This document shows positions 41,723-51,624 of a stretch of DNA of 64,000 nucleotides, in pieces. The position numbers and the translations under genes are program-made. The first letter of the stretch is position 1. Every line of letters begins with the position of its first letter. The stretch lies in assembly GCF_009914755.1 (NCBI RefSeq), contig NC_060939.1; one strand, 5' to 3'. This DNA comes from the human T2T-CHM13v2.0 reference genome, Homo sapiens. The notes below the pieces were generated by a model. That model saw only the letters and a list, made by a program, of their open reading frames with translations. It did not search any database and was not told where the DNA came from.

Positions 41723-42558
41723 TGTTTTTGTTTTTTTTTAAAGAAATTCTTATTTTTTTTATTATTATTATTATACTTTAAGTTCTAGGGTACATGCGCA
41801 CATTGTGCAGGTTTGTTACATATGTATACATGTGCCATGTTGGTGTGCTGCACCCATTAACTCATCATTTAGCATTAGGTATATCTGCTAATGCTATCCC
41901 TCCCCTCTCCCCGCACCCCACAACAGTCCCCGGTGTGTGATGTTCCCCTTCCTGTGTCCATGTGTTCTCATTGTTCAATTCCCACCTATGAGTGAGAATA
42001 TGCGGTGTTTGGTTTTTTGTCCTTGCGATAGTTTGCTGAGAATGATGGTTTCCAGTTTCATCCATGTCCCTACAAGGGACATGAACTCATCATTTTTTAT
42101 GGCTGCATAGTATTCCATGGTGTATATGTGCCACATTTTCTTAATCCAGTCTATCGTTGTTGGACATTTGGATTGGTTCCAAGTCTTTGCTATTGTGAAT
42201 AGTGCCGCAATAAACATATGTGTGCATGTGTCTTTATAGCAGCGTGATTTATAATCCTTTGGGTACATACCCAGTAACGGGATGGCTGGGTCAAATGGTA
42301 TTTCTAGTTCTGGATCCCTGAGGAATCGCCACACTGACTTCCACAATGGTTGAACTAGTTTACAATCCCACCAACAGTGTAAAAGTGTTCCTATTTCTCC
42401 ACATCCTCTCCAGCACCTGTTGTTTCCTGACTTTTTAATGGTCGCCATTCTAACTGGTGTGAGATGGTATCTCATTGTGGTTTTGATTTGCATTTCTCTG
42501 ATGGCCAGTGATGATGAGCATTTTTTCATGTGTTTTTTGGCTGCATAAATGTCTTCTT
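41723..42558 (-). mobile_element. 5'-truncated L1PA (PA4/5-like), 3' ~0.8 kb
   Basis: ORF2 C-terminus (ORF 41975..42529) plus 3' UTR; TSD agtaaaagctgtttttt at 41706-41722 and 42559-42575. Confidence 0.93.
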
Positions 42559-42960
42559 AGTAAAAGCTGTTTTTTATAAATAATATTTTGAAGTATTTTG
42601 AAAAGCCACTACCGTATAAATACAGGATGTTTACTAACAAAACAAGATATATCTATCTAATAAACACATATTTAAACAGCTCTGATACTGACTTCCTAAA
42701 CATTATTATAAAAACCAGACACCTTTCCCCAAATTGTTTACAGTAACCTTATTTTATCTGATATTTGCAGGGGGAAAAAAAGTTTTTTTAAAGAAGAAAA
42801 ACTGGAAAAAAAAAATTCTGCATTTTCCCACATAATTCTCTCTCAAAAAGAGGTGAATTCTGTTCTTCCTAAAATTATTTTTTGATTCAAATTACATGCA
42901 GAAGAATATTAAAGGATGATTAGACAAATAATAGCTCTCACTAATATATGCAAGATATAC

Positions 42961-43132
42961 CTGAATTTCTTTCTGTATTTCTTCTGAGACTTTAGACTGT
43001 GTTAACTTGTTTTTGTAGGCAATTTTATAACTCTTGAGTAACTGCCTGTGCTTTTTTATGTTACTCCATGACCACATCTGTGTATACCTTCTTATATGAA
43101 CTTCAAGAACAGAATCAATTGCATATTTCCAC
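42961..43132 (-). CDS. VPS13C: VPS13C exon 15 (172 nt) (W)WKYAIDSVL...IQKEIQ
   Basis: CAG|G...CAG|GTATAT; phase 2/0; ORF 42892..43143. Confidence 0.96.
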
Positions 43133-43483
43133 CTGAAAATCAAATTTTGTTAACGTAAATGTTAATATAAAGGTTTAAGAGAAAACAGGAAAAGTCTTGA
43201 CATTTTAGATCTTATGCTGTCAAATTTTTTGTTCTTCTTAACTGTCTTCCTATAAGAGCTCAGCAATTCCCAGCAAAATTGTCTGACTTAAATAGACTTA
43301 GATATAAGAAAACCCTTAAGGAACAGACTTTGCCAAAGCAAAATCCAAAAGGCACAAAACGACATGTGGGAAATAGCATTCCAGTATGGTTATAACACTG
43401 AGTCTATGTGGATGACTGATAAGCGATAAAACTTTTATAAAAATGTTGAATGTCTTGAATGTTAAGTTAAGAATTTGGGAACC

Positions 43484-44060
43484 GGCAGGGTGCTCACGTC
43501 TGTAATCCCAGCACTTTGAGAGGCCAAGGCGGGCAGATCACGAGGTCAAGATTTTGAGACCATCCTGGCCAACATGGTGAAACCCCATCTGTACTAAAAA
43601 TACAAAAATTAGGCCAGGCACGGTGGCTCACGCCTGTAATCCCAGCACTTTGGGAGGCCGAGGAGAGTAGATCACAAGGTCAGGAGTTCAAGATGTCGAG
43701 ATGCTGAAAGCCTGTCTCTACTAAAAATACAAAAATTAGCCAGGCGTGGTGGTGGGTGCCTGTAATCTCAGCTACTTGGGAGGCTGAGGCAGGGAGTTGC
43801 TTGAACCCAGGAGGTGGAGGTTGCAATGAGCCAAGATCGCGTCACCGCACCCCAGCCTGGGTGACAGAGCAAGACTCTGTCTCAAAAAAATAAAAATACA
43901 AAAATTAGCTGGGCGTGGTTGCACACCCCGTACCCCCAGCTACTTGGGAGGCTGAAGCAGGAGAATCGCTTGAACCAGGGAGGCACAAGTTGCAGTGAGC
44001 CAAGATCACATCACTGCACTCCAGCATGGGGACACAGCAAGATTCTATCTCAAAAAAAAA
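43484..44060 (+). mobile_element. Nested Alus: an AluS with a second Alu (43612-43890) inserted in its middle A-rich linker
   Basis: Outer TSD aagaatttgggaacc at 43469-43483 and 44061-44075; inner duplication taaaaatacaaaaattag at 43595-43612 and 43891-43908. Confidence 0.9.
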
Positions 44061-44307
44061 AAGAATTTGGGAACCTAGGAGCAGAAATACAAGTGGATGT
44101 TCATATGAAAAAAGTAATATGGACATACAAAAGAAGTGAAAGCTGTTTTTATAAGTAATCAATATATTTACCATTTGTCTTTTAATACTCTTGTCTCTTT
44201 TTTTAAAGTGGCTGAATTACTTGGCTTTTAAAGGTTGCTTAACTCTGAGAGTAACTAAATATATGATTATATGTTCCTCACAAAACAAAAAACAAATTCT
44301 AACTTAC

Positions 44308-48685: not shown

Positions 48686-48766
48686 CAAAATCTGTTCCCT
48701 TGATCTCTGGTAAGACATGCTGCAATTTACATTCCAGTAGGCGCTAAGACTATCAAGTCGTATAAG
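48686..48766 (-). CDS. VPS13C: VPS13C exon 11 (81 nt) LIRLDSLSAYWNV...REQIL
   Basis: TAG|CTT...TTG|GTAATA; phase 0/0. Confidence 0.95.
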
Positions 48767-49579
48767 CTATAAGAGAAAAATGAAAGAGATCAGGCAATCA
48801 ACACACTGAAATTATGAATCAATATTAAAAGATTATTCTCATGTTCACCACTCCAAAATTACCCAAATGCCATTTTGAATTTTTAAAGGAAAGAAAATAA
48901 CATAAAAATGAGGGGAAAATATATTCATGTTATTCAGACTTTATTAAGTCTAGCATTTGCTAAATTGCACTTTCAAGAACACTATTTCCAAGGAACTCAT
49001 TCATTCAATTATCAAATATTTATTCAGAAATTAGTATTTAACAGACCCTGTAAATATTTTGCTGAAAAAAAAAAGACATGATCCCTCCAGCAGATATGAA
49101 TAGCTGTTTCCTGAAAACAGGTGGTAGCAGAGGAGTCTATGGTCAACAAGGTGGGAAAGCTACATACTAAATAGCCCTCTTGGAGATTCACAGTGTTTGT
49201 TAACATATCTAAAGCTCTATAGTTTAAAATAAAATGAAACGTATCTGTTTAATTATGTATAGCTTAGTACTTTAATCAATAATCTTACTTGATCAGAGAA
49301 TATTTTCTCTACAACATCTCAAAATATCTCAATATCTAATAAAGTACCATTTGGGAAGTATTAACTGTATCCTGTATCTTCACTTGATAGGTAAAGAACC
49401 TATATCTCAGAACTGGTAAGTGATTACAGAGGGTCACATAGTAAGTAGCAGGGCCAAAACTAGACCCTAGACTTTTAACTCACACTCCAATGGCATATTC
49501 TGCTCCATCAATGTTTCTTCAAGAAAATAAATTAAGTGCACCTAGGAAACTAACAAAAATTTTTATTCCAACATAATAC

Positions 49580-49639
49580 CTTGTATATAATTTTGTCTGC
49601 TTCATTTAATATGCATGGAGTCCAGTGTTCATTTGCAGT
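49580..49639 (-). CDS. VPS13C: VPS13C exon 10 (60 nt) TANEHWTPCILNEADKIIYK
   Basis: TAG|ACT...AAG|GTATTA; phase 0/0. Confidence 0.95.
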
Positions 49640-50936
49640 CTAAAAGAAAAAAGGGAATACCTGTGAAACGTGGTATGGATGTCATTAATAGTGCTCTAAT
49701 ACTTACATAATGTAACAAAATAATTTAGGAAGAAATGACATCTACTTAATGTTAACTAGTATTAGCTATCTATTTCTTTACATATATTTATAAGACAAAA
49801 TCAAAGAAACAATGAAAAGAGAATTGACATGATTCTAATTTGAGTTCATTCATTCAGAAAATAATTACTGGGTTAATATGTATTTGAACTGTGGAAAGAA
49901 TCGGGTATGAATGAAAACAGAGAGCCAGCCTATACACTATTGAATATGGTATACATTCTTTTTAAAAAAACAAGTAATTGTTTTGTAATAGGAAGAAAAC
50001 CAGGAGAGTATGGAAATTACAGCATGACCAAGTTTCTACAAGGACAGCATGTTCAGCAACACCAAACACTAAACTTATTTAGCAGCAAGGGCGTTATTGA
50101 GAAACTTGTTAAGAACTGTTTCAGTGGAGTAGTAGAGTGAGAGTACAGTGAGCACATAGGTAAAATGAGATCCAGATCAGAGGTGGGAGGATAACTTTAG
50201 ATTTATAAGTTAGATTGTAATTGCAAAGAAAAATAAATGGTATGGATACAAAAGAGGTAGGTTTACTATTGCTGTAGTTGTTATAATAGCCACTATAATA
50301 GCAGGAAATAATTGAGCCAGACAATGTGCCAAAAGCTTTACATAAACTATCTCATTTAATCATCACAAAAACACTAAAAGGTAGGTACTACTTCAGTGAA
50401 TGAATGTGGTTTTGACAGAAGGAGATTAACATGATAACCAGTACAATAATATTTTACAGGTCTTTGACAAAATACAATAGGAAGCATAAAAGAGGGAATG
50501 GTAAATTCTAAGAAGGAAGTGAAAAAGAATGAGAAAGAAAGGTCATATATTACTTAAGTATTAAAACTTGAGTAGAATCACCAGGCAGAAAGTAATACAG
50601 ACAACTAAAGCAGAATGAAGAGTCTGAGCAAAGATACAAAGGGACAAACAGCAGCAAACACTAAGGAAACTACCCATTCTTATGCAATAGTATACCTGTT
50701 ATCAGACAATAGGAGGTATATGACTATTTTGTATTTTTTGCATTGTCTGCTAGAAGCTCAAAGTTACTCTGCTCCCTTATGACCACTATCATTAGTCACA
50801 GTTTTCTGGAACAATTCTCTCTCTATCCTTTAGAACACAGATTCTATCCTCTTTAAAGGTGTTACTGTATACTTGTTTTTGTCGAAAGCTACCTCAAATT
50901 CATTTTGGAAACAGGCAAAGGATAAACTAGTTTCCT

Positions 50937-51624
50937 CCCATGTTGTAGGTTGCCTGTTCACTCTGATGGTAGTTTCTTTTGCTGTGCAGAAGCTCTTGAG
51001 TTTAATTAGATCCCATTTGTCAATTTTGGCTTTTGTTGCCATTGCTTTTGGTGTTTTGGACATGAAGTCCTTGCCCACGCCTATGTCCTGAATGGTAATG
51101 CCTAGGTTTTCTTCTAGGGTTTTTATGGTTTATTGCGGCACTATTCACAATAGCAAAGACTTGGAACCAACCCAAATGTCCAACAATGATAGACTGGATT
51201 AAGAAAATGTGGCACATATACACCATGGAATACTATGCAGCCATAAAAAATGATGAGTTCATGTCCTTTGTAGGGACATGGATGAAATTGGAAACCATCA
51301 TTCTCAGTAAACTATCGCAAGAACAAAAAACCAAACACCGCATATTCTCACTCATAGGTGGGAATTGAACAATGAGATCACATGGACACAGGAAGGGGAA
51401 TATCACACTCTGGGGACTGTGGTGGGGTCGGGGGAGGGGGGAGGGGGGAGGGATAGCATTGGGAGATATACCTAATGCTAGATGACACGTTAGTGGGTGG
51501 AGCGCACCAGCATGGCACATGTATACATATGTAACTAACCTGCACAATGTGCACATGTACCCTAAAACTTAGAGTATAATAAAAATAAAAAATAAAAAAA
51601 GTCCAAAAAAAAAAAAAAAAAAAA
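50937..51624 (+). mobile_element. L1HS pre-Ta, 5'-truncated, with a 5' inversion (twin priming)
   Basis: ACG diagnostic at 51487-51489 and G diagnostic at 51572 (acttagagtat); inverted ORF2 piece at 50937-51131; TSD aaactagtttcct at 50924-50936 and 51625-51637. Confidence 0.9.

What the first reader, a model, noticed from the sequence alone, without database searches (positions are those of the whole stretch)
41770..51580. A human-specific L1HS creates an inverted-repeat clamp around VPS13C exons 10-15, a 606-nt block that would circularise into a stop-less ORF
Seen in sequence: the + strand 3' segment of the L1HS (51128-51580) lies ~1.5 kb upstream of exon 10 in transcript terms. It is reverse-complementary over ~450 nt to the 3' ends of two minus-strand L1s in intron 15 (41770-42215, ~0.75 kb past exon 15, and 37185-37627). 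I see no Alu in intron 9, so this is the obvious cross-exon pairing. Exons 10-15 total 60+81+58+128+107+172 = 606 nt and start and end in phase 0. A back-spliced circle would read ...KEIQ|TANEH... endlessly, with five internal Met codons and no stop. Established: flanking complementary repeats promote back-splicing, and stop-less 3n circles can undergo rolling-circle translation. I recall VPS13C circRNAs being reported but cannot confirm they are this block. Inference: a recent insertion could tune circle output and the reciprocal in-frame exon 9-to-16 skip in a Parkinson/DLB gene.
Basis: partly seen in the sequence, partly recalled or inferred. Interest (0 to 1): 0.8.

Follow-up and report, generated by a model that had tools for sequence, protein, structure and literature searches.

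The report
Known VPS13C circle flanked by L1s
The six-exon block is an already catalogued circular RNA of VPS13C, and the young L1 insertion beside it does pair with L1 copies across the block, but it has an equally good partner right next to it in the same intron, so its role in making the circle is unproven.

Summary
The sequence statements hold. Exons 10-15 (49639 down to 42961, minus strand) have AG/GT borders, total 606 nt and run phase 0 to phase 0. They encode 202 codons with five Met and no stop, and the junction peptide is as written. The + strand L1 piece 51128-51627 is reverse-complementary to 41716-42215 (90.5%, 507 nt) and 37136-37627 (92.2%, 500 nt) in intron 15. Intron 9 has no Alu.

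Three points change the reading.

1. The circle is known. It is hsa_circ_0000607, called circVPS13C(10-15), with a spliced length of 606.
2. It lies 333 nt from the young L1 arm and has near-equal duplex energy: -774 against -782 and -816 kcal/mol. It is transcribed just before the arm and should often sequester it.
3. A stop-less frame follows automatically for any coding-exon circle of 3n length. 130 of 325 exon blocks in this window are 3n, and none of the five AUGs has a strong context.

The L1 carries ACG (pre-Ta L1Hs), an exact 13-nt target-site duplication and a 5' inversion. Its human specificity and its causal role could not be tested here.

The parts
49580..49639 (-). VPS13C exon 10 (60 nt), which supplies the back-splice acceptor
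   Evidence: AG acceptor and GT donor, starts in phase 0
48686..48766 (-). exon 11 (81 nt)
47760..47817 (-). exon 12 (58 nt)
46125..46252 (-). exon 13 (128 nt)
44308..44414 (-). exon 14 (107 nt)
42961..43132 (-). exon 15 (172 nt), which supplies the back-splice donor
   Evidence: GT donor, ends in phase 0. The low end corresponds to the hg19 start of hsa_circ_0000607.
50924..50936 (+). 5' target-site duplication of the young L1 (13 nt)
   Evidence: Exact 13-nt match to 51625-51637
50937..51127 (-). 5' inverted segment of the young L1 (twin-priming type inversion)
   Evidence: It aligns in direct orientation to minus-strand L1 bodies at 52858-53058 and 38100-38300 (94.5%, 201 nt). The rest of the element is inverted relative to those copies.
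51128..51624 (+). 3' segment of the young L1 (end of ORF2, 3'UTR, A tail). In the VPS13C pre-mRNA this is the antisense arm.
   Evidence: ACG at the diagnostic 3'UTR site, which is diagnostic of pre-Ta by the passage read in PMC7026601.
51625..51637 (+). 3' target-site duplication
51921..52372 (-). 3' end of an older L1 in the same intron 9. It is a within-intron inverted partner of the young L1 arm, 333 nt away.
   Evidence: 91.5% over 460 nt. Duplex energy -773.8 kcal/mol. The local fold of 51100-52400 is one long hairpin with MFE -842.5 kcal/mol. GAG at the diagnostic site.
51921..55477 (-). Body of the older, 5'-truncated L1 in intron 9
   Evidence: 94.3% over 3564 nt, direct, to 37176-40719
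41716..42215 (-). L1 3' end in intron 15, 746 nt past the exon 15 donor. Across-exon partner 1.
   Evidence: 90.5% over 507 nt. Duplex energy -781.6 kcal/mol. 8912 nt between the arms.
37136..37627 (-). L1 3' end in intron 15. Across-exon partner 2.
   Evidence: 92.2% over 500 nt. Duplex energy -815.8 kcal/mol. 13500 nt between the arms.
56122..56181 (-). exon 9 (60 nt), upstream neighbour of the block
   Evidence: Ends in phase 0
36215..36277 (-). exon 16 (63 nt), downstream neighbour of the block
   Evidence: Starts in phase 0

Best explanation
Exons 10-15 of VPS13C form the already catalogued exonic circular RNA hsa_circ_0000607 (circVPS13C, 606 nt). The block has a conventional circRNA architecture: six closely spaced exons separated by short introns (0.8-1.7 kb) and bracketed by two long introns (6.5 and 6.7 kb).

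A young, twin-primed pre-Ta L1Hs fragment in intron 9 does supply the only long complementarity between the two flanking introns. In the pre-mRNA, however, its antisense arm is made about 333 nt after an equally complementary sense L1 3' end in the same intron. The two are predicted to snap into a roughly 460-bp intronic hairpin minutes before intron 15 is transcribed. I therefore infer that the L1 is at most a partial, competed contributor to back-splicing. I also infer that intron length, clustered exons and intron-binding proteins account for much of the circle's output.

The endless reading frame follows from circularising a 3n set of coding exons. It is not a sign of a translated product.

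Shown: the identity of the circle, the repeat anatomy, the energies and the frame. Inferred: the outcome of the competition and the small net effect of the L1.
For: Identity of the circle:
- hsa_circ_0000607 is listed at chr15:62299506-62306191 (hg19) under VPS13C (table in PMC6257835). That span is 6685 nt, against 6679 nt in the window.
- Its spliced length is given as 606 (table in PMC10956971).
- circVPS13C(10,11,12,13,14,15) was measured by qRT-PCR in human PBMC (passages in PMC12218994).

Architecture: intron 9 is 6482 nt, introns 10-14 are 813-1710 nt and intron 15 is 6683 nt.

Competitor:
- 51921-52372 is inverted to the arm at 91.5% over 460 nt, with a 333-nt loop.
- Duplex energies are -773.8 (internal) against -781.6 and -815.8 kcal/mol (across); shuffled arms give -159 to -174.
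- The 1301-nt local fold is one long hairpin with MFE -842.5 kcal/mol.
- The across partners lie 8912 and 13500 nt away.

Protein route: a passage in PMC8819885 states that KHSRP regulates circVPS13C biogenesis. Passages in PMC7722315 report that circRNAs with KHSRP sites and no inverted Alus respond most to KHSRP depletion.

Frame: 130 of 325 contiguous exon blocks in the window are 3n. 0 of 5 in-frame AUGs have both a purine at -3 and G at +4.
Against: - The young L1 is the only source of complementarity above 19 nt between introns 9 and 15, and intron 9 has no Alu. If this fairly widely detected circle needs intron pairing at all, the L1 is the only candidate.
- The across-exon duplexes are nominally slightly more stable than the internal one, by 8 and 42 kcal/mol. 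At equilibrium, or with helicase remodelling, they could win.
- There are two across partners against one internal partner.
- The competition rule comes from Alu minigenes (Zhang et al. 2014, recalled; not held). It reduces circularisation but does not abolish it.
- PMC7722315's main text does not name VPS13C (0 occurrences). The KHSRP link rests on one sentence and a supplementary figure of PMC8819885 that I could not see.
- I found no data on the orthologous circle in species lacking the L1.
Confidence: 0.55

Rival explanations
1. One reading: the young L1 arm in intron 9 pairs across exons 10-15 with one of the two L1 3' ends in intron 15. This brings the exon 15 donor and the exon 10 acceptor together, and is the main reason the circle is made. 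Circle output would then be a human-lineage gain.
For: - Across-exon duplexes of about 500 bp at 90.5-92.2% identity, with energies of -781.6 and -815.8 kcal/mol.
- No other complementarity above 19 nt between the two introns, and no Alu in intron 9.
- The circle is real and detected in many human samples.
- Young, species-specific transposons are generally the most frequent pairing elements in circRNA-flanking introns (abstract and passages of PMC8516420).
- ACG, an exact 13-nt target-site duplication and the fewest private substitutions (5 against 11-14) fit a recent insertion.
Against: - The arm has a within-intron partner 333 nt away with equal stability, made immediately before it.
- The across partners are 8.9 and 13.5 kb away.
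- No experiment or cross-species comparison is available.
- No paper in the searched library links a VPS13C circRNA to L1. In one search, of 5 papers holding at least 4 of the 5 terms, only a conference abstract book held VPS13C.
Confidence: 0.3
2. Lariat route: an exon 9-to-16 skipping event releases a lariat holding exons 10-15, which is then spliced internally into the circle. Intron pairing plays no part.
For: - The skip is in frame, since exon 9 ends and exon 16 starts in phase 0. A skipped mRNA would therefore escape nonsense-mediated decay.
- The long flanking introns and short internal introns fit a block that can be skipped as a unit.
Against: - No exon 9-16 isoform was seen in anything I could read.
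- The hub's gene table gives only the selected transcript, 1 of 9.
- Skipping six constitutive exons with canonical splice sites is expected to be rare.
Confidence: 0.1
3. The circle is translated by rolling-circle reading of its stop-less frame. This would give repeats of a 202-residue piece of the VPS13C N-terminal region.
For: - 606 nt is 3 x 202, with no stop and five in-frame AUGs.
- Synthetic stop-less circles can be translated without an IRES in human cells (Abe et al. 2015, as described in a passage of the review PMC10741722).
Against: - 130 of 325 exon blocks in this window share the 3n property, so it is no signal.
- 0 of 5 AUGs have a strong context.
- None of the passages I read on this circle concerned translation. 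I ran no search on that question.
Confidence: 0.05

Closest known systems
hsa_circ_0000607 (circVPS13C; named circVPS13C(10,11,12,13,14,15) in PMC12218994)
   Same: Same gene, same exon set, same spliced length (606) and same genomic span to within 6 nt.
   Different: Nothing differs; this is the object itself. The passages I read treat it as a biomarker or a miRNA sponge, and none of them concerned how it is made from flanking repeats. The yak circVPS13C is a different circle, from exons 49-52 and 682 bp long.
Inverted-repeat (IRAlu-type) circRNA biogenesis, with competition between within-intron and across-intron pairs (Jeck 2013; Zhang 2014; Ivanov 2015: recalled, not read here)
   Same: Long reverse-complementary transposon copies sit in both flanking introns, 1.5 kb and 0.75 kb from the back-splice sites.
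   Different: The repeats are L1 3' ends of about 460-500 nt, not 300-nt Alus. The single antisense arm faces three sense partners, the nearest of them in its own intron.
Young species-specific transposon dimers at circRNA loci (Gruhl et al. 2021, PMC8516420; Santos-Rodriguez et al. 2021, PMC8516421)
   Same: A recently active element supplies the pairing potential of the flanking introns. LINEs are discussed in relation to conserved primate circRNAs (passages).
   Different: Those are genome-wide statistics, and in human the enriched dimers are AluY. VPS13C is not named in either main text (0 occurrences each).
Twin-primed L1Hs pre-Ta insertions
   Same: ACG at the diagnostic 3'UTR site, a 5' inverted segment, an exact 13-nt target-site duplication and an A tail.
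   Different: About 486 nt of L1 sequence is missing between the inverted and direct segments, judged against the neighbouring copy. The tail is interrupted before its final run of A.

Membership tests
hsa_circ_0000607 / circVPS13C | Back-splice span from the exon 15 donor to the exon 10 acceptor | tested here: met
   The window span 42961-49639 is 6679 nt. The published hg19 span 62299506-62306191 is 6685 nt. I infer that the 6-nt difference is an intronic indel between assemblies.
hsa_circ_0000607 / circVPS13C | Spliced length and exon set | tested here: met
   606 nt computed here, 606 in the PMC10956971 table, and exons 10-15 named in PMC12218994.
hsa_circ_0000607 / circVPS13C | Junction-spanning reads resistant to RNase R | not testable with these tools
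   No RNA-seq data are reachable. qRT-PCR detection is reported in PMC12218994.
L1Hs pre-Ta insertion | ACG at the diagnostic trinucleotide of the 3'UTR (ACA = Ta; GAG = L1PA2 or older) | tested here: met
   In the alignment of four copies, the young copy has ACG and the other three have GAG, GAG and AAG. The criterion is taken from a passage of PMC7026601.
L1Hs pre-Ta insertion | Hallmarks of target-primed reverse transcription: target-site duplication and A tail | tested here: met
   An exact 13-nt duplication at 50924-50936 and 51625-51637, with a terminal run of A before it.
L1Hs pre-Ta insertion | Absent at the orthologous site in chimpanzee and other apes (human-specific) | not testable with these tools
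   No primate genome is held. The name L1Hs implies human specificity but does not prove it for this copy.
Complementary-sequence-driven circRNA | Reverse-complementary sequences in both flanking introns | tested here: met
   500 and 507 nt at 92.2% and 90.5% identity.
Complementary-sequence-driven circRNA | Across-intron pairing not outcompeted by within-intron pairing | tested here: inconclusive
   One within-intron partner at 333 nt (-773.8 kcal/mol) against two across partners at 8912 and 13500 nt (-781.6 and -815.8 kcal/mol). Energies are near equal, while proximity and order of transcription favour the internal pair.
Complementary-sequence-driven circRNA | Circle output depends on the repeats | not testable with these tools
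   Needs deletion or inversion experiments, or natural alleles and species lacking the repeat.
Rolling-circle-translated circRNA | 3n length, an in-frame AUG and no stop | tested here: met
   However, 130 of 325 exon blocks in the window are 3n, so the feature does not discriminate.
Rolling-circle-translated circRNA | Ribosome association or a junction-spanning peptide | not testable with these tools
   No Ribo-seq or proteomics data are reachable.

The most novel reading that the evidence does not exclude
A pre-Ta L1Hs insertion gave introns 9 and 15 of VPS13C their only long complementarity. It thereby created, or strongly boosted, the widely detected circle hsa_circ_0000607 on the human lineage. 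The neighbouring L1 in intron 9 acts as a built-in damper: unwinding or editing of its hairpin (helicases, ADAR) would set how much of the arm is free to clamp the exons. This would be a three-way L1 switch for circle output in a Parkinson's disease gene.
Probability: 0.25. Interest if true: 0.55.

Novelty: new member of a known kind. Interest (0 to 1): 0.3.

Why it matters
If the L1 does drive the circle, this would be a clear single-locus example of a recent L1 insertion, rather than an Alu, creating an abundant circular RNA. It would also come with a natural internal competitor that makes the competition model testable at one endogenous locus. The gene matters because loss of VPS13C causes early-onset Parkinson's disease (my own knowledge, not checked here).

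As it stands, the circle is already catalogued and the stop-less frame is expected by chance. What this check adds is mainly a sharper experiment: three deletions with opposite predictions.

Tried and rejected
- Conservation of the circle in other species, which would settle the L1 question, led nowhere. The mouse DRG paper names a Vps13c circle without its exons. The yak circVPS13C is exons 49-52. Searches for Vps13c with mmu_circ gave 4 papers, none with exon-level data in the listing. Two primate and mammal circRNA evolution papers do not name VPS13C in their main text.
- Supplementary tables, which may hold coordinates, primers and the KHSRP figure, could not be read.
- Earlier findings of this scan were not open.
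- The papers behind the competition model were not held: Zhang 2014 and Ivanov 2015. Three papers already fetched had no usable passage on it, so that model is cited from recall.
- CpG retention as an age proxy was rejected. The four copies have 6, 4, 7 and 6 CpGs and do not separate.
- A sensitive search for short complementarity between introns 9 and 15 found only the L1 pairs, one 19-nt A/T-rich match and three 13-14-nt matches at E values of 0.14 or more.
- I did not scan the 202-residue product against protein families, because that would need a spliced, joined sequence to be typed.
- Folding the whole 10.7-kb stretch from the intron 9 L1s to intron 15 was not attempted, because it is too large for the tools.

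
Full report
**What was checked**

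The finding makes four claims.
- There is a 606-nt, phase-0 block of six VPS13C exons.
- A + strand L1 3' piece in intron 9 is inverted relative to two L1 3' ends in intron 15.
- The L1 is a human-specific L1HS and clamps the block into a circle.
- The circle carries an endless reading frame.

**The exon block**

All six exons have AG acceptors and GT donors. Joined in transcript order they total 606 nt. Exon 10 starts and exon 15 ends in phase 0. The native frame gives 202 codons with five Met and no stop, while the other two frames of the circle have 22 and 30 stops. The junction reads EEIQKEIQ|TANEHWTPCILN. Exon 9 ends and exon 16 starts in phase 0, so the reciprocal skip would be in frame.

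**The repeats**

The stretch 51128-51627 is reverse-complementary to two stretches in intron 15:
- 37136-37627, at 92.2% over 500 nt;
- 41716-42215, at 90.5% over 507 nt.

The arm lies 1489 nt from the exon 10 acceptor. The nearer intron 15 copy lies 746 nt from the exon 15 donor. Intron 9 contains no Alu: none of its sequence matches the window's Alu-sized repeats in either orientation. A sensitive search found no other complementarity above 19 nt between introns 9 and 15.

It is the 3' end of an older minus-strand L1 in intron 9 itself, at 51921-52372 (91.5% over 460 nt), separated from the arm by 333 nt.

**The young L1**

The element spans 50937-51624 and is flanked by an exact 13-nt target-site duplication at 50924-50936 and 51625-51637.

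Its first 191 nt (50937-51127) run in the opposite orientation to the rest. They align directly to minus-strand L1 bodies at 52858-53058 and 38100-38300. This is the anatomy of a twin-priming 5' inversion (named from my own knowledge). About 486 nt of L1 sequence is missing between the two segments, judged against the neighbouring copy.

At the diagnostic 3'UTR trinucleotide the young copy has ACG. The three older copies have GAG, GAG and AAG. [quoted passage not shown] The young copy also has the fewest private substitutions among the four 3' ends, 5 against 11-14. CpG counts do not separate the copies.

So 'L1HS' holds, as pre-Ta. 'Human-specific' is implied by the family name, but I could not test it for this copy because no primate genome is reachable.

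**The circle is known**

- A table in PMC6257835 lists hsa_circ_0000607 at chr15:62299506-62306191 (hg19) for VPS13C. That span is 6685 nt, against 6679 nt between the same exon ends in the window.
- A table in PMC10956971 gives its spliced length as 606.
- PMC12218994 names circVPS13C(10,11,12,13,14,15) and measured it by qRT-PCR in human PBMC.
- Fourteen papers in the library hold the identifier and 44 hold 'circVPS13C'.

No paper in the library links a VPS13C circRNA to L1. In one search, of 5 papers holding at least 4 of the terms VPS13C, circRNA, L1HS, LINE-1 and back-splicing, only a conference abstract book held VPS13C.

**Does the L1 make the circle?**

Duplex energies for the arm with its three partners are nearly the same:

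| Partner | Location | Energy (kcal/mol) | Distance from arm |
|---|---|---|---|
| 51921-52372 | intron 9 (internal) | -773.8 | 333 nt |
| 41716-42215 | intron 15 | -781.6 | 8912 nt |
| 37136-37627 | intron 15 | -815.8 | 13500 nt |

Shuffled arms give -159 to -174 kcal/mol. The 1301-nt stretch of pre-mRNA from 52400 to 51100 folds into one long hairpin with MFE -842.5 kcal/mol.

In the transcript, the internal sense copy is made first and the antisense arm follows 333 nt later. The intron 15 copies appear only 8.9 and 13.5 kb further on.

By the established rule that within-intron pairs compete with across-intron pairs and favour linear splicing (Zhang et al. 2014, recalled; not held), the arm should often be sequestered.

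This is an inference, not a result. Three things argue the other way:
- the across duplexes are nominally a little more stable;
- there are two of them;
- nothing else pairs the two introns.

**Other routes to the circle**

The block has a common circRNA architecture. Introns 10-14 are 813-1710 nt, and the flanking introns are 6482 and 6683 nt.

PMC8819885 states that KHSRP regulates circVPS13C biogenesis, and that the circle fell while the mRNA rose during oligodendroglial differentiation. PMC7722315 reports that circRNAs with KHSRP sites and without inverted Alus respond most to KHSRP depletion, but its main text does not name VPS13C.

A lariat route through an in-frame exon 9-16 skip is possible and untested.

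**The endless frame**

Any circle made only of coding exons with a length divisible by three is open in the native frame. In this window 130 of 325 contiguous exon blocks are 3n. None of the five AUGs has both a purine at -3 and G at +4.

Rolling-circle translation of synthetic stop-less circles is documented (Abe et al. 2015, as described in a passage of PMC10741722). Nothing I read concerned translation of this circle.

**Verdict**

The circle is already known. The L1 clamp is a fair, unpublished and testable hypothesis, weakened by a nearer partner. The stop-less ORF is expected by chance.

The decisive data could not be reached here: the circle in species or alleles without the insertion, deletion of each arm, and RNA duplex maps.

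Noticed in passing
window 51921-55477 and 37176-40719: Two 5'-truncated L1 copies of about 3.55 kb lie in the same orientation in introns 9 and 15, and are 94.3% identical over 3564 nt. They bracket exactly exons 10-15. They could act as a substrate for unequal recombination that deletes or duplicates the same in-frame 606-nt block in genomic DNA.
   Followed up: no
window 41347-41669 versus 43492-44062 and 45555-45854: An Alu-sized repeat in intron 15 is inverted relative to repeats in intron 14 and intron 13 (76-81% over about 170-300 nt). These pairs bracket exon 15 alone (172 nt) and exons 14-15 (279 nt, also 3n and phase 0 to 0). They predict smaller alternative circles and further competition for the exon 15 donor.
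   Followed up: partly
window 51128-51587 and 51921-52372: The young L1 and its neighbour form a predicted intronic double-stranded RNA hairpin of about 460 bp (MFE -842.5 kcal/mol for 1301 nt). I infer it is a likely substrate for A-to-I editing and dsRNA-binding proteins whatever its effect on the circle.
   Followed up: partly
window 51575-51624: The A tail of the young L1 is interrupted: A runs broken by T, then a short GTCC, then a pure run of about 23 A before the target-site duplication. This could be a patterned tail or a very short 3' transduction.
   Followed up: no
window 50937-51127 versus 51128: Judged against the neighbouring L1 copy, about 486 nt of L1 sequence is missing between the inverted 5' segment and the direct 3' segment of the young element. 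By my recollection this is larger than the small gaps usual at twin-priming junctions.
   Followed up: no
window 30247-30527, 34754-35045, 35742-36035 (intron 16): Intron 16 holds Alu-sized repeats in both orientations. They are inverted to each other (80-83%) and to repeats in introns 13-15, which gives many further possible pairings around exons 14-16.
   Followed up: no
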